From assembly GCA_963736995.1 (NCBI GenBank), contig CAVTRB010000007.1:623884-687883 (forward strand): a stretch of 64,000 bases of DNA. The letters are read 5' to 3'. Source of the DNA: an uncultured Chloroflexia bacterium (GTDB lineage Bacteria; Chloroflexota; Ktedonobacteria; Ktedonobacterales; Ktedonobacteraceae). Numbering within the stretch: position 1 is the stretch's first letter; each line of letters opens with the position of its first letter. The translations under genes were made by a program, and so were the position numbers. Positions 1,716-28,548 of the stretch are shown here, piece by piece. The notes below the pieces were generated by a model. The model was not told where the DNA came from. It saw only the letters and a program-made list of their open reading frames with translations, and did not search any database.

Positions 1716-2759
1716 ATGGAGGCGCGTATCATCACGGACTGCCAGCAATGGAACGATTTTGTGGAGCAGTCGGTGTGTTGCAACATCACACAATCGTATG
1801 AATGGGGCGAACTGGCTCCCCACCTGGGTGCGGAAGCTATGCGCGTGGGCGTCGTTGACGACGAGGGCAGGCTTTGCGCCGCTATGCTCGTCCTCATCTC
1901 GCCCGTTCCCGTGCTGCACCGTCCCTATTTCTACGCGCCGCGCGGCCCCGTCATCGACGACCCCAACTCCCCGGCCATGACTGTCCTGCTCAACTATGTA
2001 CGGGCCTCGGCGCACAAACGCGGCGCGTTCATGCTCAAAGTCGAGCCGAGCGTGCCGGATGGGGATGTACAGTGGCTGGCCGCGCTCAAACGGCGTGGCT
2101 TCCACACCAACCCCTACGCCAGCCATGTGCGCCACGAATGGGTGCTGGATATCCGGCCCGACGAGAAAGAACTGCTGGCAGGTATGAAGGAGAAGTGGCG
2201 CTACAACGTGCGACTGGCTGCCCGCAAAGGCGTGACCATCCGGTGCGCCTCGGGGCAGCAAGAGCAGGCCGATCTGGATACCTTCTATCGCCTCTACGAA
2301 ACGACCAGCGAGCGCGACGAGTTCTTCATCCACAAAAAGTCCCATTACGAGGACGTGATGCGCCTCTACAGTCAGGGTGACCGCGCTGCGCTGCTGCTGG
2401 CGGAACACGAGGGGCAGGCCATCGCAGGCATCATCGTCCTGCGCTTCGGGCGCTGGAGCTGGTACATGTACGGAGCCTCCTCCAACGAGCAGCGCAATCT
2501 CATGCCCAATCACCTCTTGCAGTGGAACGGCATGCAGTGGGCAAAAGCGCGCGGCTGCTGGTACTACAACTTTCGCGGCATTCCCGACATCCTGGAAGAG
2601 GGACAGGAACTCTGGGGCGTCTACGTCTTCAAACGTGGCTTCGGCGGCTATGCCATGCGCTCTCTTGAGACACATGACCTTGTCTACCAGCCCCTCGTCT
2701 ACAATGCCTATCGCCGCCTGCTCGACATCAAACGCTGGCGCGACGAGAAAAGACATTAA
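1716..2759 (+). CDS. FemAB-family aminoacyltransferase, second paralog
   Basis: 347 aa, colinear with the 516..1625 product (QSYEWGEL, TSERDEFFIH, WGVYVFKRGFGG). RBS-like GAGGAA upstream. Confidence 0.85.
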   Translation: MEARIITDCQQWNDFVEQSVCCNITQSYEWGELAPHLGAEAMRVGVVDDEGRLCAAMLVLISPVPVLHRPYFYAPRGPVIDDPNSPAMTVLLNYVRASAHKRGAFMLKVEPSVPDGDVQWLAALKRRGFHTNPYASHVRHEWVLDIRPDEKELLAGMKEKWRYNVRLAARKGVTIRCASGQQEQADLDTFYRLYETTSERDEFFIHKKSHYEDVMRLYSQGDRAALLLAEHEGQAIAGIIVLRFGRWSWYMYGASSNEQRNLMPNHLLQWNGMQWAKARGCWYYNFRGIPDILEEGQELWGVYVFKRGFGGYAMRSLETHDLVYQPLVYNAYRRLLDIKRWRDEKRH

Positions 2760-2854
2760 TATTCCTTAAGAACTTCGAGATTGAGCATTATTATCCCATG
2801 TTTAATCTTGCCTGTTCCGTATAGTCATGCTACACTACTAACAGTGCTGAACCA

Positions 2855-2882
2855 CAAAGCAACGAAGGTTGCTTTGTTTCGT
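2855..2882 (+). terminator. Hairpin (9-bp stem CAAAGCAAC/GTTGCTTTG, GAAG loop) followed by TTTC; terminator or leader structure
   Basis: Read directly. Lies between the femAB paralog and the response regulator. Confidence 0.4.
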
Positions 2883-2984
2883 ATGCTTAAGCAAGGAAGC
2901 AAAGAAGCTTACATCGTAACTTGCGCTGACAGGAGGCTGTACCTCCTTCGCAACTCGAAGATACAATGAGTTTCACATACTGCA

Positions 2985-3410
2985 ATGGCTCGCAGAAGGA
3001 GGCAGGGAGAACGAGTGACAAAACAAATATTAGTCGTTGACGATAAAAGTGAACTGCTGCACCTGATGCGAAGGGTGCTGGAAGATGAACAATATCATGT
3101 CTCTATCCTGCAAGAGGGGAAAGAGGCATTTATGCAAGTAAAAAGTCAATTACCTGATCTGCTCATTCTCGATTTGCGGCTGGGCGATATTTCTGGTCAG
3201 GACATTCTGAAGCAGTTGAAAGATGACCTCGTGACCTGCGATATCCCCGTAATCGTCTATACTGCCGCCGTGCTCGAAGCCGAAGAGGTCACAAGGCTCA
3301 TCACCAGCTACCCCGGACACTATCGAAGTGTGTACGTCGTCCAGAAACCGTTTGAGCTGGATAGCCTGTTGGACCTGGTGCAGCAAGTTCTCAACGAGCC
3401 TGTACGTTAG
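2985..3410 (+). CDS. Single-domain response regulator (CheY-like receiver)
   Basis: ILVVDD...LPDLLILDLRLGD...VIVYTA...KPF receiver signature. The start is uncertain (a GTG about 11 codons downstream is possible). Confidence 0.85.
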   Translation: MARRRRQGERVTKQILVVDDKSELLHLMRRVLEDEQYHVSILQEGKEAFMQVKSQLPDLLILDLRLGDISGQDILKQLKDDLVTCDIPVIVYTAAVLEAEEVTRLITSYPGHYRSVYVVQKPFELDSLLDLVQQVLNEPVR

Positions 3411-3447
3411 CGTACTGTCAAACCTTACAAAAAATCAAACAGAAAGG

Positions 3448-3714
3448 ATGGTGTCAGGAATGAAATTTGTCTTCGGGCTACTCCTGGGCATTGCACTTGG
3501 TGTACTCACCGGTCTGCTGCTCGCGCCACAGTCGGGCGATGCTACCTTAGCTCAACTGAGCGAACAGGGTATTATGCTGCGCAATCGTACCAGTACGCTT
3601 GGCGACGATCTGAAGACACGCGCCACCGAGGCCATGACTCAGGGCCGCGAAATCTACGATCGCACCAAAGTCGAGCTGACCCAGCGTTACAACCAGACGA
3701 AGGGCCAGTTCTAA
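3448..3714 (+). CDS. YtxH-domain small membrane-anchored protein
   Basis: N-terminal TM segment FVFGLLLGIALGVLTGLLLAPQSG (YtxH signature LLAPxSG), then a helical polar tail. ATG at 3448 or 3460, AAAGGA RBS. Confidence 0.75.
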   Translation: MVSGMKFVFGLLLGIALGVLTGLLLAPQSGDATLAQLSEQGIMLRNRTSTLGDDLKTRATEAMTQGREIYDRTKVELTQRYNQTKGQF

Positions 3715-3734
3715 CTCGTATCTATTTCCCACGG

Positions 3735-3780
3735 GCAGGTGCAAGCTGACGATCAGCCTGCACCTGCTCTTGTTTTATTT
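3735..3780. terminator. Intrinsic terminator hairpin between convergent genes
   Basis: GCAGGTGCA...TGCACCTGC stem followed by TCTTGTTTTATTT. Confidence 0.6.
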
Positions 3781-4020
3781 GCTCTCATACTGTTTAATAA
3801 GTCGCTCCACCATATTGCCAATATCATGGAGAAGCTGGTGCTCGTAGTCCAGCAAACGGGCCTGTGTCAGATCAAAGTCGCGATTCCCCGGGTCACGTTT
3901 CGCATTCGCCTCAAACTGCTGCGCGACGAGCCGTTTTTTGTTGCCTTGAGTGTGCAGATCTGCGGCAAATGCATGCAAATCTTGCAGCAAGGCATTGAAT
4001 TTCTCTTCACTACCTGGCAT
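3775..4020 (-). CDS. Hypothetical small helical protein (81 aa)
   Basis: Internal ATG at 4020 with GAAGGGAAAG RBS, 17 nt after the upstream CMD gene ends. The longer ORF 3775..4143 would overlap that gene. Confidence 0.55.
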   Translation of the reverse strand: MPGSEEKFNALLQDLHAFAADLHTQGNKKRLVAQQFEANAKRDPGNRDFDLTQARLLDYEHQLLHDIGNMVERLIKQYESK

Positions 4021-4036
4021 AGAATATCTTTCCCTT

Positions 4037-4600
4037 CTACTCACCATTCGTTTTTTGCTGGCCCGGCGTCTCGCCTGCACCCGCTGGTGGCGGAAGAATT
4101 TGCAGCGCATCGGCGAAACGGTTGAAAAAGTTGAACAGGCCAATGACGGTTGTTAGCTCGACCAACTGGTCATCATCGAAATGCAACTGCAATTCATCCC
4201 ACAGGTTCTCGTCCACATCACCGCCGCTGGTCGTCACAATCTCTGCATAACGCAGCGCGACCAGTTCTCGCGTGCTGAACAGGTGGCCATGCACATCTAT
4301 GTGATAGAGCGCGTCCAGCAGTTCCTCACTCACTCCCATCTGCCTTGCCAGGGCAGTATGTGCTGCCATTCAGTAGAAGCAGTTGTTGACCTGCGAGACT
4401 CGTATAGCCAGCAATTCCTTCAATTGCGGCTCAACCGTTCCCTCACGCATCGTTGCCTGCAACAGCGCGAGGCTGTGCCGGGCCAGTTCCGGGCGATGCT
4501 CCATCACCCGAAACAGCAGCTCCATTGTAGACGCACCCGGTATATCATGAACATCTATCTGCACATGCTCAACAGGTGGAATCCGTGACATACTTGGCAT
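4037..4600 (-). CDS. Carboxymuconolactone decarboxylase/AhpD-like protein interrupted by one in-frame TGA (4370-4372): candidate selenoprotein, or pseudogene
   Basis: ORFs 4370..4600 and 4037..4369 are contiguous in one frame: ...RVSQVNNCFY-TGA-MAAHTALARQMGVSEE... The TGA falls where the CMD family C-x-x-C-x-x-x-H motif has its second Cys. Confidence 0.7.
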
Positions 4601-7772: not shown

Positions 7773-8657
7773 ATGGTGGAAGTCTACGCTGAACGCATTC
7801 ACACCGAACACGCGGTACTGGATATCGGAGAGGATATCGGCGCGCTGGTCATCTATACCACACAGGCATTGCTGGGCAAGGAAATCCAGGTGAGCCAGAA
7901 AGGGATCGAGGCAGCCCGGATGATTCATACCGCTGTCTGGGAGCGCCGCTTCAATGGACAGGTCATGTACGCCGGCATCTATCCCTCACTGCCAGAAGGA
8001 AACTACATCATCTGGGTTCATCCAAGCCGCGAAGTGACCATCACCGGTGGAAACGTCGCCGAGATAGATATAAGTACCAGTAGCGCTGTCTACATCCCTC
8101 CTGCTATCAATCACGCTCATTTCTTCGATCAAAATAGTGCAACAGCGCCTCAGGAGGCTCTACGCGACCTGCTGCCACCACGGTATCGCGAGGGAAAGGT
8201 CAATCCCGCTCCTATGGGGTCAGCTCCAATGCAATACACCGAAGACGGGCAGGTAGCCTGGGATCAAATGTGGAGCAATTTCTGCGATCTGGCACTGGCA
8301 GGAGGTCCTCCGCATCGAGACACTCTACTGGAGCCAGTTTCCCCACACGAAATAAACGCCAACCAGGACTCCTACCAGCAAGTCGTGACGGAGATCGAGC
8401 GAGGACTGGTTCTGGTCACAGGACTACCCAGCATACAGAGCAAAAGTCCAGGATGGGTGGGCTTGCAGTGTGAAGATGAGGAGATGGCGCGCTGGTTGCT
8501 TCGTGCCATCGTTGTAGAAAATGTGTGTGTGCGACGCGAGGGAACTCAACTCTTCTTTCCCGCCGGTCCAGCCTTTCGCATGGAGCGTGAGATCAAAAAC
8601 ATTGTTACGGTCGTCGCCAAGACGCATCACTACTGGAAAGAACACCAGTATGGATGA
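7773..8657 (+). CDS. Hypothetical protein (294 aa) downstream of DUF4331
   Basis: Clean ORF with AGGAGAAGG RBS. No motif I can name with confidence. Confidence 0.6.
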   Translation: MVEVYAERIHTEHAVLDIGEDIGALVIYTTQALLGKEIQVSQKGIEAARMIHTAVWERRFNGQVMYAGIYPSLPEGNYIIWVHPSREVTITGGNVAEIDISTSSAVYIPPAINHAHFFDQNSATAPQEALRDLLPPRYREGKVNPAPMGSAPMQYTEDGQVAWDQMWSNFCDLALAGGPPHRDTLLEPVSPHEINANQDSYQQVVTEIERGLVLVTGLPSIQSKSPGWVGLQCEDEEMARWLLRAIVVENVCVRREGTQLFFPAGPAFRMEREIKNIVTVVAKTHHYWKEHQYG

Positions 8658-8682
8658 GCGGAGTGTGGTCGAGGGCTAAATA

Positions 8683-8711
8683 TTGAATGCGAGGCATAAC
8701 TCTGATATAAT
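8683..8711 (+). promoter_or_regulatory. Sigma-70-like promoter upstream of ruvB
   Basis: TTGAAT (8683-8688), 17-nt spacer, TATAAT (8706-8711). Confidence 0.45.
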
Positions 8712-8786
8712 GTGGTAAGACAACAGTAGAACATTGGTTTCATATTCTGTTTCTATGCGTTTGAGAGATACACATGGGAGAGGAAC

Positions 8787-9845
8787 ATGACGACTGAGCG
8801 GCTGGTCTCACCACAGATGACCGAGGAAGAACAGATCATTGAGGGCAGCCTGCGCCCGCGCAGGCTAGCGGAATATATCGGGCAGGAGAAGATCAAGGAG
8901 AATTTGAGTATCCTGCTGGAGGCGGCACGGCGGCGCAAAGAGACAGCTATCGATCACGTGCTGCTCTATGGGCCACCGGGATTGGGGAAGACGACACTCT
9001 GCAATATTATCGCCGCTGAGATGGGCGTGAGCCTGAAAACGACCTCTGGCCCCGCCATTGAGCACGCTGGCGACCTGGCCTCTATTCTCACCGCCTTGCA
9101 GCCGGGAGAGGTGCTTTTCATCGACGAGATTCACCGCCTCGCACGTGCTGTGGAGGAGCGGCTCTACTCGGCAATGGAAGATTATGCGCTCGACGTGATG
9201 ATCGGCAAGGGACCGGGCGCACGAGCATTGCGCATCTCGCTGCCGCCCTTCACTGTTGTGGGAGCCACCACGCGAGTCGGCTCCATGACTGCTCCCCTGC
9301 GCGACCGCTTCGGGGCCATCTACCGCATGGAATACTACGATAACGAGGCGCTCAAGCAGATTCTCATTCGCTCGTCCCGCATTCTGAAAGCTCCTGCTGA
9401 CGAGGATGGCATCACGGAGATTGCAGGGCGCGCCCGTGGCACACCCCGTATCGTCAACCGCCTGCTCAAGCGCGTGCGCGACTATGCTCAGGTCAAGGCA
9501 GACGGCGTGATTACCCGACCGGTGGCGAAGGCTGCGCTGGACGCGCTGGAAATCGACGAACTGGGCCTCGACCAGACCGACCGCAACCTGTTGCTTGCCA
9601 TCATCCAGAAGTTCGGTGGTGGCCCCGTCGGTCTGGAAACGCTGGCAGCCAGTACCAGCGAAGATTCCGAGACCATCGAGGATGTCTACGAACCCTACCT
9701 GCTGCAACTCGGCTTCATTGCCCGCACGCCACGCGGTCGCGTCACCACTCGCCTCGCCTACCAGCACCTGGGCATTCTCCCTGCAAACGACGGCGATAGC
9801 AACACCACACCCGGCCCTGGTCTCTGGAACACGACCGGCAAATAA
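8787..9845 (+). CDS. ruvB: Holliday junction branch migration ATPase RuvB
   Basis: [19 protein letters not shown]...[13 protein letters not shown]...FIDEIHRL. 352 aa. Confidence 0.97.
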
Positions 9846-9856
9846 AGAGCGTATCC

Positions 9857-10001
9857 GTAGGGGCGAGGGCGGTTGAGTGGATGTGGGGAGGGCCTTTATG
9901 GTCGCCCGCGTCCTTTTTCCCATGAAAGACTGCTCTAATCAGGGTACGGCGGGCGACCATAAAGGCCCTCCCCGCCACTACCCTGCCCCGCTCGCCCCTA
10001 C
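9857..10001. repeat. Composite REP-like palindrome (GTAGGGGCG...CGCCCCTAC ends)
   Basis: Left arm GTAGGGGCGAGGGCGG..GGGGAGGGCCTTTATGGTCGCCCGC mirrors right arm GCGGGCGACCATAAAGGCCCTCCCC..CCGCTCGCCCCTAC. Confidence 0.85.
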
Positions 10002-10165
10002 GGGTATCCCATCCCTTTCACTTCCACCTGGATCGAGTATAAAAAATCTCCTGCATCTTCTGCATGCCCTCCAGCGTATCATGAGCAGAAGAACGCTTCT
10101 GGCATCCTCGAAAAGCGCTTGCCAGAGGTTGGTAATGGCAGCACAGGGAAAAGGAGGGATTTATC

Positions 10166-10441
10166 ATGCAGGCGATAAAGACGATGTTGCTCGGTTTGAT
10201 CATCATGCTTGTGGGTTTTGGCTTCTTTGTTATCCTCATCAACACTAATCTCGGTAGCTACGCAGGCTTTGGGCCTGTCAATGTCCTGGTCGATACATTC
10301 CTGCCTCAGAATAGTGGTAGCAGCGCCTTTGGCTATCTGGATCAGGTAGCCTCCGTCATCCGTCTCGAAGAAGGTATCGCCCTTGCTGTCATCGGAGCAG
10401 GATTCCTTGTTTCGATTGCGGGCTACGTCCGAGGTAGATAG
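10166..10441 (+). CDS. Small membrane protein (2 predicted TM segments)
   Basis: Strong RBS AAAGGAGGG. Hydrophobic segments MLLGLIIMLVGFGFFVILI and IALAVIGAGFLVSIAGYV. Confidence 0.65.
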   Translation: MQAIKTMLLGLIIMLVGFGFFVILINTNLGSYAGFGPVNVLVDTFLPQNSGSSAFGYLDQVASVIRLEEGIALAVIGAGFLVSIAGYVRGR

Positions 10442-21077: not shown

Positions 21078-21215
21078 CTCTATTCTCGACTTTATCCACC
21101 TCATCAACAGGAGAATCAGATAATTTGTCCCTTAGAATATGGAAAAAGTCACACCAACATGCTATACTTATGGTATTCAATGTCCCCCTGTTTATGGCAA
21201 AGATCGAGGTGCTCT

Positions 21216-21641
21216 ATGATGAAGCAGCACGAAGCCGCTTCTCTAAGAGAAGCGGGTGAGAGGAAAACTATTTTGATTGTTGAGGATGATCCCGATACCG
21301 GTCTCGTATTTGTCTCGGCCCTGAAGCAATATACGCTGCTTTCCCCGCTGCTTGCTCAGAGCGGTAGCGAAGCCTTGCACATGGTGCAGAAAAGAAAGCC
21401 TGATCTCTTACTGTTGGATTACCTGTTAGGGGGAATGGATGGCATTGAGCTTTCTGACCAACTCCATCGCATCAGCGGCCTCGAAGCAGTTCCAACTATT
21501 GTAATGAGCGCAGCCACGATGTCCCTTGAACGAGAAGAGCAGTTCAGAACACGCCAGATCGTCTTTCTGAGAAAACCCTTTGACCTGGACGTACTTTTTG
21601 AAACGATTGAGTCCCTGCTCACCGAGAAACAGATAGCATGA
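21216..21641 (+). CDS. Single-domain response regulator (receiver)
   Basis: ATG 21216 with GAGGTG RBS. ILIVEDDPD...PDLLLLDYLLGGMDG...VMSA...KPF. Confidence 0.8.
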   Translation: MMKQHEAASLREAGERKTILIVEDDPDTGLVFVSALKQYTLLSPLLAQSGSEALHMVQKRKPDLLLLDYLLGGMDGIELSDQLHRISGLEAVPTIVMSAATMSLEREEQFRTRQIVFLRKPFDLDVLFETIESLLTEKQIA

Positions 21642-21781
21642 TTGCTATTGAACCCCTTTTATCCAGGCTGTTCTCAGCTTTCCAGGTACTTTTGACCTGA
21701 TCGAAAACTATTTTCCCTCACGTGTCGTAATACTCTAAGGTGAACATACCGCATCCTTACAAAGGAAGCAAGGAAGCAAGC

Positions 21782-22078
21782 ATGATGGTAGATGGCTGGT
21801 TTATCAGCGTAGGACCGTGTTATTCATTGACCGAGGAACAGTCTGAGTTTATTCGCTGGAATCTCACCGTTTTGGCAGTTTCGACGCGAGGACTCTTTGA
21901 TGACCCCGTTCTCTTCACCGGTCAATCGCTGCAGGCGCACTACACCGCTGACTACCACGCGCAAGAAACCTGCGAACACATCAAAGCCTACCTCCAAACC
22001 ATCAAGCAAGACAACCACGTTACAGTAAACATCTGCCCGGCACAATGGGACCGCAGTCGCGTCGACCAACTGCTGTAA
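21782..22078 (+). CDS. Hypothetical protein (98 aa)
   Basis: ATG 21782 with AAGGAAG RBS. No recognisable motif. Confidence 0.45.
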   Translation: MMVDGWFISVGPCYSLTEEQSEFIRWNLTVLAVSTRGLFDDPVLFTGQSLQAHYTADYHAQETCEHIKAYLQTIKQDNHVTVNICPAQWDRSRVDQLL

Positions 22079-22213
22079 ACGAATTTTCTCTCCTGGCAGC
22101 ACGAGGTTCATAATTTGTTCTCTAATAAAGAAAGCGTAACGGGCATCTGGTGAATTGCCCTGCGGTTTTAATGATGGTTGATGCACATGGGAATATGTCC
22201 GTTGCAGGTATGT

Positions 22214-23434
22214 CTATCTATTATCTCGGACTACTGCTAGAAAATCTTCAAGGGCCAGAAGTTGTGATCTGATAGCAGGAACGTATTGTGTATGAAGCGA
22301 TCGGGGAACTACCAGAACGACATTGGAGTCCTGCATTTCCCTGAACTGGTTTTCGGAGATACCCTCTTGTACGGTCAGCAGGTGCTTCACTTCAATTTTA
22401 TCTGCCTCATTCAGAATCTGCCTCCATCGGTCTTTGCAGGTGGTTTTTACTGCCAGCATAAAGAGATTTTTCTCACCTTTTGCACTTCTGTGATAAACCT
22501 CGGCTGAAGGGAACAGAAAATCAGGCTTCTTGTTCAGCTCCGATACTTCTCCGTGTGAATACCTGATATCTTCTTCATCGAAGATGGCTTTCGTCTGAAA
22601 TTCAAGAGACTTCCCGGCTCTCGACTTGCGCCTGTTCGCTACGGAATTAGCAAGTTCCAGAAACTCTTCAACGGAGCTAAATCCGTTACGAATCTGAGGT
22701 AATACATATTGCTCCTCCACAGAACGAAATACATCATATTCGCAAGATTTTCTTTCCATCAGACGGTCATCAGCAGATTTGCCTCTTGCCGGTCTGAGTG
22801 AAATTGCCTTCTGGACAATCTCTGTAGCGGGGGGAAATGTAGGCAACCACGTGGGAGGAATTTCTGAAGGACTTAAAAGACATGAGGTTGGTTTCTGAGA
22901 TCTGTCGTAACTGATTCGTGGAACAATACTCGTTGCTGTATATGCGATGAATATTCTCGCCCCCGGTTCAACTGGTCCAATTCTGTTTTCAACCAGATCT
23001 TCCTGTTCTAAATCAGTACATAGCCATATCCGTACCTCATCAGCATCATGACCTCCTGTCTTATGAAAAGCCAGAATAAAAATCGAGCCAGTAGAGTCGG
23101 GATCAAGGATAGGTGAATTGTTACCTCCCCAGTTCGTAATTCTGCACTCATCCCTCGTTCCATCACTGACAATCCTATTGTTATACCAGATGGCAGACAC
23201 ATTTTCTTCAAGAAGATGAGAGTCAACACTTACTCTAAACCATTTGCGGGGATTCAATGACGTAGATTGCCTGATAGAAGGAACCAGCTCGTCGATTACT
23301 TCCTTCGGAATGTAGGGACCAGCCTGATGTGTTCGATTGAGCAAGGTATCATTACCGGAGAGTCTTTTAACATACCAGTACCATCCCCTCGATGAATATT
23401 TCTCCATCCATGTTGTCAGATCAATTACCTGCAC
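22214..23434 (-). CDS. Type IIE restriction endonuclease, EcoRII family (CCWGG-type)
   Basis: Colinear with EcoRII as I recall it. N-terminal YVKRLSGNDT...HQAGPYIPKE effector (B3-like) domain. C-terminal ANSVANRRKSRAGKSLE...KKPDFLFPSA...LAVKTTCKDRWRQILNEADKI. GTG start at 23434 (alternative ATG 23407). Confidence 0.9.
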   Translation of the reverse strand: MQVIDLTTWMEKYSSRGWYWYVKRLSGNDTLLNRTHQAGPYIPKEVIDELVPSIRQSTSLNPRKWFRVSVDSHLLEENVSAIWYNNRIVSDGTRDECRITNWGGNNSPILDPDSTGSIFILAFHKTGGHDADEVRIWLCTDLEQEDLVENRIGPVEPGARIFIAYTATSIVPRISYDRSQKPTSCLLSPSEIPPTWLPTFPPATEIVQKAISLRPARGKSADDRLMERKSCEYDVFRSVEEQYVLPQIRNGFSSVEEFLELANSVANRRKSRAGKSLEFQTKAIFDEEDIRYSHGEVSELNKKPDFLFPSAEVYHRSAKGEKNLFMLAVKTTCKDRWRQILNEADKIEVKHLLTVQEGISENQFREMQDSNVVLVVPRSLHTQYVPAIRSQLLALEDFLAVVRDNR

Positions 23435-23522
23435 TTCACTTCTCTTTTCCAGATATCATCCTTACGTGTCCCTGTAAAGCTTAGATTTCTGCTTCCCATT
23501 ATACCAGAGGAGAAGAGTGAGG

Positions 23523-24248
23523 TTAAGGTTTTTCGGCGATGTGGGTAGCATCTGTGGAGTGGAGTAACTGCTTTCGTCTGTGAAGGCAGAAATCACTCCC
23601 CAAAGGACATTCACTACAGTGAGGGGCCGGTGTACAGATCTCCATCGAGAAATCAAGAACGGCATAGTTATATTCTCTAGTATTGTTCTGCGGAGTAAAT
23701 CTATCTGCAAGTTCAATCAGCCATCTCTTTCGTCGTGTTTCTCCATCCATTGGTTGATCGACAAGGCGACAGAGCCAGCGAACAATGTTCGCATCAATGA
23801 TTACGCTTCTCCCACCTCCATGAAAACCAAGCCAGGCAGCCGCAACATATGCACCAACACCAGGCAATTCTAGCAAACCTTCTAAAGTTCGAGGGATTTC
23901 TGCGGTAGTCTGTACAAGATACTCCCCAAGTTTCTTAAGAAGTGGAGCACGCCAGCGCAAACCAAGAGGATAGATTATCTGCTCAATATCACTTTCTGAT
24001 GCCTGAGCAAGACTTTCAACAGTGGGAAAACGCTTGAGGAAAGCCTTATAAACAGGTAATACACTACTCACTCTGGTACGTTGAAGCAGGATTTCTGCTA
24101 CTAATCCATGCCATAACTGCTCTGGTGTTCGCCAGGGAAACTCTTTATAGTGTTCTTTTCCCCACTCCAGAAGTCTTTTTCTAATTTCTACAATGGAACC
24201 ATCTGTAATCGTAACTGGTAGGGCCGGGGCCGTTCCTTTTTCTGCCAT
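23523..24248 (-). CDS. HhH-GPD DNA glycosylase of the MutY/EndoIII family with Fe-S cluster Cys motif; probable T:G mismatch (deaminated 5mC) repair glycosylase
   Basis: LLQRT, HhH LPGVGAYVAAA (no catalytic Lys), IDANIVR Asp, four-Cys motif CTPAPHCSECPLGSDFC. ATG 24248 with GAAGGAA RBS, overlapping the dcm 3' end by 61 nt. Confidence 0.8.
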   Translation of the reverse strand: MAEKGTAPALPVTITDGSIVEIRKRLLEWGKEHYKEFPWRTPEQLWHGLVAEILLQRTRVSSVLPVYKAFLKRFPTVESLAQASESDIEQIIYPLGLRWRAPLLKKLGEYLVQTTAEIPRTLEGLLELPGVGAYVAAAWLGFHGGGRSVIIDANIVRWLCRLVDQPMDGETRRKRWLIELADRFTPQNNTREYNYAVLDFSMEICTPAPHCSECPLGSDFCLHRRKQLLHSTDATHIAEKP

Positions 24249-25207
24249 GTTCCTTCGATTCCAGGGAAAAGCGTTTGAACTATCTCCTGAGCTACACATT
24301 TAACTACAGGGACAACAACGGAGTTACCAAATTGTTTGTATGCTCTGGTATCACTGCAAACAATCCTGTATGTTTCAGGGTAACCCATCAATCTGGCACA
24401 CTCTCTCGGGGTAAGCCGACGAGGATTTTTATTCACTTGAGGTACAAGTATCTCTGCACCATCCTTATAATATCGTGCGCTTAAGGTTCGCGCAATACCA
24501 TCCAGATCAGTGAGACCATATCCGAAACCATTTCCTTTTGACCTGTGTTTTTCCGCATATTTTTGCAGGTAAGACCAGAGATGATCTGATAAGGTATATT
24601 TCTCATCTACCTCATCTTCAAGGATATTCCTGAATTTTGGTTTCAGGTCAGGTAGAGTAGGAAAATCGAAATCTAAGGGATCTCTGAATCCCACGATATA
24701 TATTCTTTCACGGTGCTGGGGAACGACAGTGCGGGCATCAAGAATTGCATGATAAACGTGATAACCCAGTTCATCCCTGAGGGTTCGTTCGATGACCTTG
24801 AAAGTTCTTCCCTTATCATGGTTTTTCAAGTTTTTTACATTTTCAAGAAGAAAAGCTTGCGGTCTTTTCTTCTTGATGATGCGAGCTACATCAAAGAAAA
24901 GAGTTCCCTGAGTTGCGTGCAATAAACCATGCTTGTTCCCAAGAGCATTATGCTTTGTTACACCGGCGATACTGAAAGGTTGACAGGGAAAACCGGCAGT
25001 CAGAATATCGTGATCGGGTATACTATCTTCTGAAATTTTTGTGATGTCACCCTCCGGGATGACACCAAAGTTTGCCTGATATGTCTTCTGAGCATACTTA
25101 TCCCACTCAGAAGACATAACACATTGGCCTCCACATTCTGTAAATGCAATACGGAAGCCACCGATACCTGCAAACAGATCGATAAATCTGAACTGATTCT
25201 TCTCCAT
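24188..25207 (-). CDS. dcm: DNA (cytosine-5)-methyltransferase, Dcm-like
   Basis: Motif I FRFIDLFAGIGGF, motif IV GFPCQPFS, motif VI LLENVKNL, motif X QFGNSVVVPV. ATG 25207 preferred over TTG 25294. Confidence 0.92.
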   Translation of the reverse strand: MEKNQFRFIDLFAGIGGFRIAFTECGGQCVMSSEWDKYAQKTYQANFGVIPEGDITKISEDSIPDHDILTAGFPCQPFSIAGVTKHNALGNKHGLLHATQGTLFFDVARIIKKKRPQAFLLENVKNLKNHDKGRTFKVIERTLRDELGYHVYHAILDARTVVPQHRERIYIVGFRDPLDFDFPTLPDLKPKFRNILEDEVDEKYTLSDHLWSYLQKYAEKHRSKGNGFGYGLTDLDGIARTLSARYYKDGAEILVPQVNKNPRRLTPRECARLMGYPETYRIVCSDTRAYKQFGNSVVVPVVKCVAQEIVQTLFPGIEGTWQKKERPRPYQLRLQMVPL

Positions 25208-25550
25208 AAAACAACCTACATTTTCCTGAAATAGCGGGAACACTTCTAACCGGAATTGCTGCAAAAGCGGTGAAAAGTGAGTGTTCTCCAGCAACTAAAG
25301 CCATAAGATCAGGCTTCTACTTAGGACAATCATACATTGAAAGAAGCCCTCTGACAAGATGTAAAATGCACATGGTTTCTATTCTTGAGGGGAAATATAG
25401 CCGAAAAGCCGTAATCTGGAAAATGCAAACTTGCATTTCATTACCCGTCTTTTTGTATGGCAGAAAGAATGAGTTACGTGGAGTCCAACATTGCCTGCCA
25501 CTTTACTGGTTCCTGAATGATCAGATTAGTTTGGAAGATAGAGGTATCAG

Positions 25551-26753
25551 ATGAATCTTTCAGATGTCTTTACAGCAGTCGCGTACAAGCAACTGGTACA
25601 GGTAGATTTACCAGGAGGGTCAAATCAACATGAAATAAACGGTGTTGCGGCCCTCAGAAGCTTCTTCAGAACTTCTGAAAGAATTTCAGGGAAAATTAAC
25701 TGGTACTATTTTGCTGATAATCAGGAACCACAGCATGGAACCGGTGATTTTACCTTTTACGACGCTCGTGAAAATATTGAAAACAGGACCCAATGGCGAT
25801 TTTATTATAGAGGCGATTTTCTCCGCCGTGCAGATGTAGGAGATGTGCTGCTTCTTGCAAGAATCAAAGGGCAGGAAGATATTTACGGACTTGTATTTCA
25901 GGCAAACTCTAACTGGATACGTTCAGCCCGAGCACTTATCGAACTAAGGAATCCAACTAAACAATTAAAGCTCATTTCTTCTGAAGAGTTGAGCAAGCGT
26001 GAGCTTGAGTCTATTGCATCTCTCATCCTGGATGAACTGGACATCGAGTTTCCCTTTCCGGTACGAAGTACAGACGAGGATCTGGTCGTTCAGAAGTTTG
26101 ACAAGATATTCCCGGCAACAATTGCACTATCCCGTCTGGCACGAGAGCAAGTTGAAGTTAATCTTTCTGACCCAGATGAGACACTGCTAAGATGGATTCA
26201 GCGGGAAGAAGAACTTTTCCGGGCACTGGAAAGGATTGTAGTGCAACAGAAACTGGATAGTGGATTTGAAAGCGTGGATGATTTTATCAAGTATTCCCTT
26301 TCAGTGCAAAACCGGAGAAAATCTCGCATGGGATATGCTTTCCAGAACCATATTCAGGCATTACTGGATGCTTACAGCATCAGATACACCCCTCAGGCGC
26401 GAACAGAGGGAGGTAATAAACCAGACTTTCTGTTTCCCGGTCAGAAGGAATACCGTGACCTGACTTTTAACAGCAATTATCTGACAATGCTCGCTTTAAA
26501 AGCCAGCTGTAAAGATCGATGGAGACAGGTTTTGCCTGAAGCAGACAGGATAGCTGAGAAACATCTGGCCACACTGGAACCTGGCATTTCTACAACCCAG
26601 ACGGATGAGATGAGACGGCTGAGGGTTATACCTGTACTTCCACGTAAGCTTCTTATCGAAACTTATACAGAGTCGCAACAGAAAGAGGTAATGACAGTAA
26701 GTCAGTTCCTCTCTCTTGTCCGCTCAAGACAGGATCGCGTAGACAGCCATTAG
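25551..26753 (+). CDS. EcoRII-C-domain restriction endonuclease paralog with divergent N-terminal domain
   Basis: The C-terminal half aligns by eye to the 22214..23434 product (SVQNRRKSRMGYAF...NKPDFLFPGQ...LALKASCKDRWRQVLPEADRI...HLATLEPGIS). The N-terminal ~200 aa share only a faint K.L...D.....NQHE pattern with EcoRII-N. Confidence 0.8.
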   Translation: MNLSDVFTAVAYKQLVQVDLPGGSNQHEINGVAALRSFFRTSERISGKINWYYFADNQEPQHGTGDFTFYDARENIENRTQWRFYYRGDFLRRADVGDVLLLARIKGQEDIYGLVFQANSNWIRSARALIELRNPTKQLKLISSEELSKRELESIASLILDELDIEFPFPVRSTDEDLVVQKFDKIFPATIALSRLAREQVEVNLSDPDETLLRWIQREEELFRALERIVVQQKLDSGFESVDDFIKYSLSVQNRRKSRMGYAFQNHIQALLDAYSIRYTPQARTEGGNKPDFLFPGQKEYRDLTFNSNYLTMLALKASCKDRWRQVLPEADRIAEKHLATLEPGISTTQTDEMRRLRVIPVLPRKLLIETYTESQQKEVMTVSQFLSLVRSRQDRVDSH

Positions 26754-26904
26754 CACTTATTGATGAAATCTATGATCACTTGCTCCCTGTCTGGAAATTC
26801 ATCACCAATCACTAATACTACCCACACACTTCCCTCAATACAAATGTTCCCTTCCCGAAAGGAAGCATGTCCCTTCGGGAACACTTTTATTGAGCTTGAT
26901 AGGG

Positions 26905-28548
26905 TTAGTGAGAGGTGAGGTAGACGCTGGACCAGTCGCCGAAGTAGAGGCCGTTGCTGTTGAGGGTGACGCCGTGGACCCAGGAGGGGATGATGGCGGC
27001 CATGGCCTCGTGGTCGATTGGTAGCCAGCCGACATCGGTAACGGCGATCTGCTCGGCCTGGTTGTAGAGGGTGATACGGGCATCACCGGTGATCTGCTCG
27101 GCCTGCTTGATGAGCTGGTCGAACTGGGCATTGCTCCAGTCGCCATTGTTGTTGGGCGCGTTCGTGGTCAGGTTCAGGGCCAGCCAGTCGTAGGGGTCGG
27201 GGAAGTCCGCGCCCCACTGGGTGAAACCAAATTGTATCTGGTGGTTGGCCGTTTCCTGGTTGTAGGCGTTCAACTCTACGGAATTGAGCCTGACCTGGAT
27301 GCCCAGCGCGTTCTGCCACATCTGTTGCAGGGCAGAAGCCTCGTCCAGTGTGACCTGCGAGCTGGGGTACGAGAAGATAATTGGCGGCACCTGGCTCACA
27401 TCGGGGTAAACGGAGAGCAGAAGCTGTTTGGCCTTCACTTTATCATAGGGTAAGCCTGGATAATTTGGCTGGTAGCCGGGCATACCGGGTGGAATAATCG
27501 TCGGCGCGGGCGTCACCGTATCTTTGAAGATCGCGTGTGCCAGTGTCACCTTATCGGTTGCGTAGGCAAAGGCCTGGCGCACGGCGACGTTATTGAACGG
27601 CGGCTTCGTGTTGTCGAAAAACAGCAGGTCCGATTCCAGCAGGGAATGGCGGATAAAGCCGGGCATATTCTTCGCCGTCTGTTGATCCTGCGGAGAGAGG
27701 TTCCAGACGAAGGCATACTGGCCCGCACGGTAGGCGTTGAATGCCGTGGAAGGGTCGTTCACGAAGAGCATATCGACCTCGCTCAGCCGCGTTTTCGCGC
27801 CGTAGTAGTGCGGGTTGGGAACCAACACCATTTTGACATTGTGATCCCACTCTTTGACCATAAAGGGGCCAGTGCCAATTCCATTACCGGCGGCATGATT
27901 CACCCAGTTGGTTTGACCATACTGATTAATAATCTTCTCGTTGAGCGGGTAGTAAAGCGAGTTGGTGAGCACCTCCAGGAAGTAGGGGGTTGGTTTCGTC
28001 AGCGTAATCTGCAACGTCTGGGCATCAATCGCTTTGACCCCGGCTAGCGTCTTCGTCTTTCCACTGTTGACGGCATCGGCACCTACAATATTCGCCTCAA
28101 AGAACGAGGCAATGCCCGACTTCACCACCGGCAACAATGCACGAGTTAAGGTGTAAATATAGGTTTGAGCGGTGACGGGAGCACCATCGGAGAAGGTAAT
28201 GCCGGGTTTTATGTGGAAGGTGTAGATTGTATTGTTATTAGAGATATCCCAGGTGGCCTGGTCGGGAACAACATTCAAATTTATATCAGACTTGACAAGA
28301 CCGCTGTAGATCATGCTGACCGCAACCGCCGAGTTGGCATCCGGCCCTAAGGCTGGATCGAGACCACCGATATCGGTCGTGCCAACATTGGGGAAGGTCA
28401 GCACCTGCTTGGATGCCGGTGTGGAAGAGCCATTCGCGTTGGAAGAACTGCTGCCGCCACTACACGCGGCAAGCACGAGCAGCAGGGCGGCCAGAAATAG
28501 GAATGCGGTCGGCCAGCGTCGCAGATGGATGGACCATTGATGATACAC
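26905..28548 (-). CDS. ABC transporter substrate-binding lipoprotein, family 5 (peptide/nickel)
   Basis: Lipobox LVLAACSGG. 547 aa with typical SBP_bac_5 layout (LVKSD..., GTGPFMVKEW). Confidence 0.85.
   Translation of the reverse strand: MYHQWSIHLRRWPTAFLFLAALLLVLAACSGGSSSSNANGSSTPASKQVLTFPNVGTTDIGGLDPALGPDANSAVAVSMIYSGLVKSDINLNVVPDQATWDISNNNTIYTFHIKPGITFSDGAPVTAQTYIYTLTRALLPVVKSGIASFFEANIVGADAVNSGKTKTLAGVKAIDAQTLQITLTKPTPYFLEVLTNSLYYPLNEKIINQYGQTNWVNHAAGNGIGTGPFMVKEWDHNVKMVLVPNPHYYGAKTRLSEVDMLFVNDPSTAFNAYRAGQYAFVWNLSPQDQQTAKNMPGFIRHSLLESDLLFFDNTKPPFNNVAVRQAFAYATDKVTLAHAIFKDTVTPAPTIIPPGMPGYQPNYPGLPYDKVKAKQLLLSVYPDVSQVPPIIFSYPSSQVTLDEASALQQMWQNALGIQVRLNSVELNAYNQETANHQIQFGFTQWGADFPDPYDWLALNLTTNAPNNNGDWSNAQFDQLIKQAEQITGDARITLYNQAEQIAVTDVGWLPIDHEAMAAIIPSWVHGVTLNSNGLYFGDWSSVYLTSH

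What the first reader, a model, noticed from the sequence alone, without database searches (positions are those of the whole stretch)
25551..26753. Second, divergent EcoRII-C nuclease sharing a single Dcm methyltransferase with a canonical EcoRII
The island has only one methyltransferase (24188-25207) but two nucleases. Their C-terminal halves align by eye over the PD-(D/E)XK region: NRRKSR.G, KPDFLFP, LA.K..CKDRWRQ.L.EAD, then L.T...GIS. The minus-strand enzyme is colinear with EcoRII throughout. The plus-strand enzyme has an N-terminal ~200 aa that keeps only a faint trace of the EcoRII-N effector motif: AYKQLVQVDLPGGSNQHEINGV versus YVKRLSGNDTLLNRTHQAGPYIP. EcoRII-N is the autoinhibitory domain that makes EcoRII need multiple CCWGG sites. 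Two catalytic paralogs with different sensor domains behind one protective MTase could therefore be a two-sensor restriction module, for example one that defeats site-poor invaders. I do not recall this arrangement being described.
Basis: partly seen in the sequence, partly recalled or inferred. Interest (0 to 1): 0.72.

Follow-up and report, generated by a model that had tools for sequence, protein, structure and literature searches.

The report
Guest EcoRII-like nuclease sharing one methylase
A small DNA-defence island carries two related CCWGG-type restriction nucleases but only one protective methylase; the second nuclease belongs to a large, unstudied sister family of EcoRII that normally has its own methylase, so the pairing is a rare, dispensable add-on and not a new kind of system.

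Summary
A low-GC island (about 21.7-26.8 kb) encodes a canonical EcoRII (22214-23434, minus strand), an HhH-GPD glycosylase, one Dcm-type C5 methylase (24188-25207, minus strand) and, divergently, a second EcoRII-C nuclease that I call R2 (25551-26753, plus strand). The two C-terminal halves are 39% identical (E 9e-39).

R2's N-terminal 190 aa match no Pfam, NCBIfam or PDB sequence. A confident AlphaFold model (pLDDT 95) finds EcoRII-N as its nearest solved fold, then plant B3 domains. A weak profile alignment places family-invariant residues on EcoRII-N's CCWGG-reading residues, including R-x-E-x-R.

R2 belongs to a large family (437 clusters at 50% identity). In about 80 loci this family is almost always the sole nuclease of its own Dcm + Vsr or HhH-GPD operon. 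The window's methylase is closest (76-80%) to methylases of EcoRII-only operons, so R2 is the guest.

The four-gene layout recurs in one sister lineage, where all four genes are under purifying selection (dN/dS 0.07-0.13). A third lineage has lost R2 by a 1.27 kb deletion.

Catalytic Glu271 is Gln in R2, but Gln is the norm in its subclade.

The "two-sensor module" idea is neither supported nor excluded. This is a variant of a known kind, of moderate-to-low interest.

The parts
25551..26753 (+). R2: an EcoRII-sister-family restriction endonuclease (400 aa). It has a cryptic B3-like N-domain, a helical linker and an EcoRII-C catalytic domain.
   Evidence: AlphaFold model pLDDT 94.8. Foldseek matches 1na6_B at E 1.4e-25 over 417 columns.
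25551..26120 (+). R2 N-terminal domain (aa 1-190): a DNA-binding pseudobarrel (B3/EcoRII-N-like) from a sequence family not covered by Pfam EcoRII-N.
   Evidence: No Pfam, NCBIfam or PDB sequence hit. Foldseek top hit is EcoRII-N 3hqf_A (E 1.8e-4, prob 1.0), followed by VAL1/LEC2/FUS3 B3 domains. hhalign against EcoRII-N gives P 0.0025-0.005 and aligns K13, Q26, Y70 and R79-x-E/Q81-x-R83 with K23, Q37, Y85 and R94-x-E96-x-R98.
26217..26711 (+). R2 EcoRII-C catalytic/recognition domain (aa 223-387). D292, K317 and E330 correspond to EcoRII D299, K324 and E337. K321-D322-R323 is the CC:GG reader. Q265 replaces Glu271.
   Evidence: Residue roles are taken from PMC2770665.
25208..25550 (.). Divergent intergenic region between M and R2. 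It has a promoter-like site on the minus strand at 25357-25329, upstream of M.
   Evidence: consensus scan only; no more sites than in shuffles.
24188..25207 (-). M: a Dcm-type C5 cytosine methylase, the only methylase of the island. Its specificity is presumed to be CCWGG.
   Evidence: PF00145 at E 6e-93. TIGR00675 dcm and PRK10458. Best PADLOC hit DrmMII at 1e-159. It is 76-80% identical to the M of EcoRII-only operons.
23523..24299 (-). V: an HhH-GPD (MutY/Nth-like) DNA glycosylase, presumed to be the T:G mismatch repair partner of the 5mC methylase (a Vsr analogue). The start is probably at 24248.
   Evidence: PADLOC 'Type II nicking endonuclease' PDLC03398 at 3e-27. It takes the place of Vsr in many related operons.
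22214..23434 (-). R1: canonical EcoRII (EcoRII-N plus EcoRII-C).
   Evidence: More than 6800 homologues share this architecture.
21700..26800 (.). Low-GC island that holds the four genes.
   Evidence: GC is 0.41-0.47 against about 0.56 in the flanks. The same block occurs in other genomic contexts in L084 and L089.

Best explanation
R2 is a normal, probably active member of a large uncharacterised sister family of EcoRII. It consists of a deeply diverged B3-type pseudobarrel effector domain, a helical linker and an EcoRII-C nuclease.

Members of this family are almost always the only nuclease of a Dcm-like methylase plus Vsr (or HhH-GPD glycosylase) operon. In the window's lineage, an R2-type gene without a methylase of its own lies divergently beside a complete M / HhH-GPD / EcoRII operon. 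I infer that it depends on that operon's CCWGG methylation for self-protection.

Both nucleases are inferred to cut unmethylated CCWGG independently. Each would use its own pseudobarrel domain to bind extra CCWGG copies, as a type IIE enzyme does. The glycosylase would repair T:G mismatches that arise from 5mC deamination.

Shown here: the domain content, the fold, the family context, which gene is the guest, purifying selection on all four genes, and loss of R2 in one relative. Inferred: CCWGG specificity of R2, its activity, its type IIE behaviour, and independent action of the two nucleases.
For: - Domains and paralogy.
- Fold of the N-domain.
- Alignment of family-invariant N-domain residues onto the EcoRII-N base readers: with residue roles from PMC2770665.
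- Family size and uniform architecture: 437 clusters, and 79 of 79 full-length members carry EcoRII-C.
- Context: the family sits in M + R2-type + Vsr or HhH-GPD operons without a canonical EcoRII in L001, in about 78 of 80 metagenome loci, and on RefSeq plasmids, where it is annotated 'type II restriction endonuclease'.
- Guest status: the window M is 76-80% identical to the M of EcoRII-only operons whose R1 is 67-73% identical. It is at most 74% identical to the M of R2-type operons, whose R2 N-domains are only 39-53% identical.
- Recurrence: the same layout is found in L002 and L084.
- Selection: dN/dS is 0.13 for R2, 0.11 for R1, 0.07 for M and 0.10 for the glycosylase.
- No site avoidance: CCWGG is not avoided in the host DNA, with 215 sites against 142 +/- 10 expected. 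Active enzymes therefore require methylation.
Against: - The equivalent of catalytic Glu271 is Gln in R2, and the Glu275 equivalent is also Gln. Golovenko et al. describe this residue as absolutely conserved in EcoRII homologues.
- The flipped-base pocket differs. R222 becomes Ile and Y226 becomes Glu. A family-conserved Trp lies one residue earlier.
- The window's R2 has Gln where the family and L002/L084 have Glu81 in the R-x-E-x-R motif.
- The N-domain homology rests on a Foldseek TM-score of about 0.5 and a weak hhalign score (probability 7-12%).
- No biochemical data exist for any family member that I could find.
Confidence: 0.68

Rival explanations
1. Cooperative two-sensor module. R1 and R2 were selected to work together behind one methylase. 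Their different effector domains would impose different site-number or geometry requirements, or the two proteins would form mixed oligomers. The pair would then restrict invaders that escape either enzyme alone.
For: Two paralogs with very different effector-domain sequences are kept under purifying selection in two lineages. The block, including R2 or its remnant, appears to move as one island between genomic contexts. Two other R2-type loci also carry an extra EcoRII-N-like protein.
Against: The pairing occurs only in the window's own lineage among about 87 loci examined. R2 was deleted in L089 and L090 with M-V-R1 left intact. R2-type enzymes work without EcoRII everywhere else. The N-domain keeps EcoRII-N-like reader residues, so it probably senses the same sequence. 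C-domain identity of 39% makes heterodimers unlikely.
Confidence: 0.15
2. R2 is a catalytically impaired paralog. It would act as a CCWGG-binding protein or a nickase, tolerated or used for regulation, and not as a true second restriction enzyme.
For: Glu271 is replaced by Gln, and Glu275 is also replaced by Gln.
Against: Gln at this position is the norm (21 of 25 loci) in the R2-proximal clade, where the protein is the only nuclease in M+V+R operons. D299, K324, E337 and the K-D-R reader are all retained. dN/dS of 0.13 applies across the gene. A methylase plus a mismatch-repair gene tightly linked to a dead nuclease in dozens of lineages would be hard to explain.
Confidence: 0.12
3. R2 is a transient leftover of recombination between two isospecific R-M systems and is on its way to being lost, with no selected function.
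For: It has no methylase of its own. It was deleted in L089 and L090. Solitary nucleases that rely on isospecific methylases are known (PMC3488263; PMC3874152).
Against: The reading frame is intact and dN/dS is 0.13 at dS of about 0.56 between the window and L002. That is long-term purifying selection, similar to R1.
Confidence: 0.05

Closest known systems
EcoRII (type IIE, CCWGG; PDB 1NA6, 3HQF, 3HQG)
   Same: The two-domain plan is the same. The EcoRII-C catalytic domain is about 40% identical to R2's, and Foldseek gives TM 0.89 on 3hqg. D299, K324, E337 and the K-D-R CC:GG reader are retained. The N-terminal domain is a B3-type pseudobarrel. The partners are a Dcm-type methylase and a 5mC-deamination repair gene.
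   Different: The N-domain is only about 15% identical and is invisible to Pfam EcoRII-N and to PDB sequence search. Glu271 is Gln. The pocket residues R222 and Y226 are replaced. In this window R2 has no methylase of its own.
UbaLAI (monomeric type IIE, CC/WGG; PDB 5O63; PMC5766183)
   Same: It is a precedent for an EcoRII-N-like B3 effector domain that has diverged to about 18% identity yet still reads CCWGG with partly conserved contacts, such as the matching Glu.
   Different: UbaLAI's catalytic domain is MvaI-like, not EcoRII-C. 5O63 was not among the top Foldseek hits for R2's N-domain.
PspGI and Ecl18kI (EcoRII-C-like, base-flipping CCWGG/CCNGG enzymes)
   Same: They share the catalytic core and the base-flipping family. 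Foldseek E is 1e-9 to 1e-10 and phmmer E is 1e-3.
   Different: They have no effector domain.
Solitary restriction endonucleases protected by a methylase from another system (Ershova et al. 2012, PMC3488263)
   Same: A nuclease gene lacks its own methylase and relies on isospecific methylation.
   Different: Here the borrowed methylase is immediately adjacent and already serves a paralogous nuclease of the same family.
Vsr, and Mig-type HhH-GPD T:G glycosylases linked to 5mC methylases (own knowledge)
   Same: A repair gene for T:G mismatches from 5mC deamination is embedded in the R-M operon. Vsr and HhH-GPD alternate in the related loci.
   Different: Nothing unusual. The activity of this glycosylase was not tested.

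Membership tests
EcoRII-family restriction endonuclease | EcoRII-C (PF09019) catalytic domain | tested here: met
   E 6.9e-64, covering the full model 1-165. 3hqg_A matches at 1.4e-40. Foldseek TM is 0.89 on 3hqg.
EcoRII-family restriction endonuclease | Active-site residues Glu271, Asp299, Lys324 and Glu337 (PMC2770665) | tested here: not met
   D292, K317 and E330 are present, but Glu271 is replaced by Gln265. Gln is typical of R2's subclade. In the wider family, 63 of 79 members have Glu.
EcoRII-family restriction endonuclease | CC:GG reader Lys328-Asp329-Arg330, plus Arg262 | tested here: met
   K321-D322-R323 lies in the CKDRWRQ motif, and the NRRKSR motif is present.
EcoRII-family restriction endonuclease | Flipped-base pocket R222, E225, Y226, F229 | tested here: inconclusive
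   E219 and F223 are conserved. R222 becomes I216 and Y226 becomes E220. A family-conserved W215 lies adjacent.
EcoRII-family restriction endonuclease | EcoRII-N (PF09217) effector domain, by sequence | tested here: not met
   No Pfam hit at E <= 0.01 in R2 or in any of 79 family members. A PDB profile search found nothing. hhalign probability is 7-12%.
EcoRII-family restriction endonuclease | B3-type DNA-binding pseudobarrel at the N-terminus, by fold | tested here: met
   Foldseek hits 3hqf_A at E 1.8e-4, prob 1.0, TM 0.49/0.54, followed by plant B3 domains.
EcoRII-family restriction endonuclease | Type IIE behaviour (needs at least two CCWGG copies; autoinhibition by the N-domain) | not testable with these tools
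   This needs enzyme kinetics on one-site and multi-site substrates.
Type II R-M system | Linked cognate methylase of matching specificity | tested here: inconclusive
   A Dcm-type M lies 343 bp away and is divergently transcribed. Its specificity and its protection of R2 sites are inferred, not shown.
Methylation-dependent (type IV/IIM) nuclease | Absence of a methylase that creates its target in the same cell | tested here: not met
   R2-type genes are almost always in an operon with a Dcm-like methylase, so a 5mC-dependent activity would be suicidal.

The most novel reading that the evidence does not exclude
The island could be a genuine dual type IIE module. The two EcoRII paralogs, with effector domains from two anciently separated pseudobarrel families, would impose different synapsis or site-spacing rules, or would co-assemble. 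Invaders with sparse or unfavourably spaced CCWGG sites, which are refractory to EcoRII, would still be cut. Separately, the Gln271 clade may use an alternative active-site arrangement.
Probability: 0.12. Interest if true: 0.6.

Novelty: new variant of a known kind. Interest (0 to 1): 0.36.

Why it matters
The finding matters in three ways.

First, it flags a large sister family of EcoRII that databases label only as 'type II restriction endonuclease'. The family's effector domain escapes Pfam, and many members lack the supposedly invariant catalytic Glu271. It is a cheap target for biochemistry: does the cryptic B3 domain still read CCWGG, and how does the Gln-type active site work?

Second, the same N-domain also sits on GHKL ATPases, a Fic protein and a DUF6339 protein, so it may be a reusable DNA sensor in other defence systems.

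Third, the two-nuclease, one-methylase island is a natural test of whether stacking type IIE enzymes of one specificity widens restriction. The evidence here suggests an opportunistic, dispensable add-on.

Tried and rejected
- Sequence searches for the N-domain found nothing: Pfam, NCBIfam and PADLOC and a PDB profile search.
- The word-indexed search found only 3 homologues. The exhaustive HMMER search was needed to find the family.
- The search for related loci with a 25-sequence alignment failed because it had no conserved stretch. A 6-sequence alignment worked.
- The genome-contig scan gave only one locus.
- An exact look-up of R2 found no contig record.
- A methylation-dependent nuclease was rejected, because the family is obligately linked to Dcm.
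- An assembly chimera was rejected, because the same layout occurs in independent JGI and NCBI assemblies.
- A dead paralog is judged unlikely.
- A literature search for a described 'two nucleases, one methylase' EcoRII arrangement, or for a characterised member of this family, found nothing direct. That search covers the held open-access library only. REBASE was not available.
- The source organism was not determined.

Full report
**1. Observation**

The region 21.7-26.8 kb is a low-GC island, with GC 0.41-0.47 against about 0.56 in the flanks. It holds four genes:

| Gene | Coordinates | Strand | Size | What it is |
|---|---|---|---|---|
| R1 | 22214-23434 | minus | 406 aa | EcoRII-N plus EcoRII-C |
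| V | 23523-24299 | minus | 258 aa | HhH-GPD MutY/Nth-like glycosylase; PADLOC calls it 'type II nicking endonuclease' |
| M | 24188-25207 | minus | 339 aa | Dcm-type C5 methylase; best PADLOC model is DrmMII |
| R2 | 25551-26753 | plus | 400 aa | EcoRII-C at aa 223-387; nothing recognised in aa 1-222 |

**2. What the N-terminal domain of R2 is**

Sequence methods see nothing. Pfam, NCBIfam and PADLOC give no hit, and a profile of the domain finds no PDB sequence even at E 10.

An AlphaFold2 model built on a 79-sequence family alignment is very confident (pLDDT 94.8, pTM 0.90). A model of the domain alone has pLDDT 88.

Foldseek with the full-length model hits EcoRII 1NA6 over 417 columns (E 1.4e-25). 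It also hits the EcoRII-N/DNA complex 3HQF (E 2e-4, prob 1.0) and plant B3 domains. The domain-only model gives the same ranking: 3HQF_A first (E 1.8e-4, prob 1.0, TM 0.49/0.54, 15% identity), then 1NA6, then VAL1, LEC2 and FUS3. The domain is therefore a B3-type DNA-binding pseudobarrel, and its nearest solved relative is EcoRII-N.

Profile-profile comparison with EcoRII-N is weak: P 0.0025-0.005 and HH probability 7-12%. Its register nevertheless fits the fold, and it places family-invariant residues of R2 on residues that Golovenko et al. 2009 (PMC2770665) show contacting the CCWGG bases or backbone:

| R2 residue | EcoRII-N residue |
|---|---|
| K13 | K23 |
| Q26 | Q37 |
| Y70 | Y85 |
| R79-x-E81-x-R83 | R94-x-E96-x-R98 |

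The window's copy has Gln at position 81, whereas L002, L084 and the rest of the family have Glu. UbaLAI-N is a precedent for a pseudobarrel that still reads CCWGG at 18% identity to EcoRII-N (PMC5766183). My inference is that R2's N-domain binds CCWGG or something very close to it.

**3. The family R2 belongs to**

An exhaustive HMMER search with aa 1-190 found 437 clusters (50% identity representatives) at E <= 1e-3. Most are about 400 aa long with the domain at the N-terminus. All 79 full-length members scanned carry EcoRII-C and no other Pfam domain.

In a Flavobacteriales MAG, the R2-type gene (50% identical) sits in a Dcm - R - Vsr operon with no EcoRII. In 80 metagenome loci recovered with N-domain motifs, the gene is almost always next to a Dcm-like methylase (50-74% identical to the window's M) and either Vsr or an HhH-GPD glycosylase. 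It is usually co-directional with them. A canonical EcoRII is absent in all but one of these loci.

RefSeq plasmids of Alphaproteobacteria, Actinobacteria, Enterobacter and Aeromonas carry the same dcm-vsr-R operons, where the gene is annotated only as 'type II restriction endonuclease'. R2 is therefore a regular member of a widespread, self-sufficient, uncharacterised sister family of EcoRII. It is not an accessory of EcoRII.

**4. Which nuclease owns the methylase**

Close relatives of R1 (67-73% identical) occur in M - HhH-GPD - R1 operons without any R2-type gene (L085-L088). Their M is 76-80% identical to the window's M, and their glycosylase is 65-72% identical.

The best M matches among R2-type operons reach only 70-74%, and the N-domains of their R2 genes are 46-49% identical. 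The nearest R2 N-domain relatives (about 53%) have M at 59%. M-V-R1 is therefore the co-evolving unit, and R2 is a guest without its own methylase. This matches the known idea of solitary nucleases protected by an isospecific methylase (PMC3488263 and PMC3874152).

**5. Is the pairing conserved?**

L002 (a JGI metagenome contig) and L084 (NCBI GCA_037025385.1) show the same layout: R1 - V - M on one strand and R2 divergent. The two contigs are identical where they overlap, so they count as one lineage.

Against the window, dS is 0.55-0.8. dN/dS is 0.13 for R2 (289 codons), 0.11 for R1, 0.07 for M and 0.10 for V. All four genes are under purifying selection.

A third member of the clade (L089, L090, L091) keeps M-V-R1 at 81-90% identity. 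It has a clean deletion of about 1.27 kb that removes the R2 promoter region and about 364 codons, leaving only the last 36 or so codons next to M.

R2 was therefore present in the clade's ancestor, has been maintained in two branches, and is dispensable in a third. The island, with R2 or its stump, lies in different genomic contexts in these genomes.

Among about 87 loci examined, a canonical EcoRII plus an R2-type gene occurs only in this clade.

**6. Catalytic competence and specificity**

Equivalents of D299, K324, E337 and the K328-D329-R330 reader are present in R2. They are nearly invariant in the family.

Glu271, described as absolutely conserved in EcoRII homologues, is Gln265 in R2. 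Gln is found in 13 of 79 family representatives. It is found in 21 of 25 loci of the R2-proximal clade, where the enzyme is the sole nuclease of its operon. Gln is therefore a stable clade feature and not a sign of decay. How catalysis is achieved with Gln is unexplained.

The flipped-base pocket keeps E225 and F229 but replaces R222 and Y226, and a conserved Trp lies next to it.

R1 is a canonical CCWGG enzyme, and M is the only methylase. CCWGG is frequent in the host DNA: 215 sites against 142 +/- 10 expected. An active R2 must therefore cut only sites that M protects. This argues for CCWGG or a subset of it.

A methylation-dependent activity is excluded by the family's obligate linkage to Dcm.

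**7. Verdict**

The 'faint EcoRII-N trace' is genuine remote homology.

The 'two-sensor module' reading is not supported, for four reasons:
- The second sensor seems to read the same sequence.
- R2's family normally works alone.
- The pairing is confined to one clade.
- The pairing is dispensable.

It is not excluded either, because both genes are kept under selection in two lineages.

The most likely picture is two independent type IIE-like CCWGG nucleases behind one Dcm, with R2 acquired as a methylase-less guest. This is a new variant of a known kind.

The more useful by-product is the recognition of a large, unstudied EcoRII sister family. It has a cryptic B3 effector domain and, in many members, Gln in place of catalytic Glu271.

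Noticed in passing
L030 4265-4681 (+) with 2349-4262 (+); L064 7950-8525 (-) with 8381-10219 (-): In two R2-type loci, a small stand-alone EcoRII-N-like B3 protein of about 140-190 aa (motifs NDTG..SHQAG and YNNR..TRDEYR) sits beside an SNF2-family helicase gene, next to the Dcm/R2-type system. This may be a separate helicase-plus-DNA-reader module that uses the same methylation mark.
   Followed up: partly
L037 5489-6004 (+): A stand-alone copy of the R2-type N-domain (171 aa, with SNQHE and RSEWRLYY motifs) is encoded between the methylase and the full-length R2-type nuclease. The nuclease's own reader motif there is KER instead of KDR.
   Followed up: partly
proteins P0024, P0033, P0068, P0079: The R2-type N-domain also occurs at the N-terminus of 870-910 aa proteins with two GHKL ATPase domains (HATPase_c_3 plus HATPase_c). 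It occurs at the C-terminus of a Fic/SoFic protein and in a DUF6339 protein. This suggests a mobile DNA-sensor domain used by other, possibly defence-related, systems.
   Followed up: partly
window 26343-26345 (R2 Gln265) and loci L001-L038: The catalytic Glu271 equivalent is Gln in 21 of 25 enzymes of the R2-proximal clade, including sole-nuclease operons. The wider family mostly has Glu. No compensating acidic residue is obvious in the window's copy, where the Glu275 equivalent is also Gln.
   Followed up: partly
window 1-64000: CCWGG is over-represented: 215 sites against 142.5 +/- 10.5 expected from dinucleotide shuffles. This fits methylation with efficient T:G repair rather than site avoidance.
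   Followed up: no
window 23523-24299 (-), and L010, L013, L015, L020, L023, L031, L085-L089: An HhH-GPD (MutY/Nth-like) glycosylase takes the place of Vsr in all close EcoRII operons and in roughly a quarter of the R2-type operons. Its 5' end overlaps the 3' end of the methylase gene.
   Followed up: partly
L089 1-4289 (+); L084 3983-7129 (-): In relatives, the island sits next to other defence genes: an MmeI/Eco57I-type enzyme and a 1130 aa PLD-nuclease/SNF2 helicase fusion. In the window it lies between a response-regulator gene (21159-21641) and an ABC-type solute-binding protein gene (26905-28548).
   Followed up: no
window 21740-22078 (+): A 112-aa ORF with no Pfam, NCBIfam or PADLOC match lies at the low-GC edge of the island, just beyond the 3' end of R1.
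   Followed up: no
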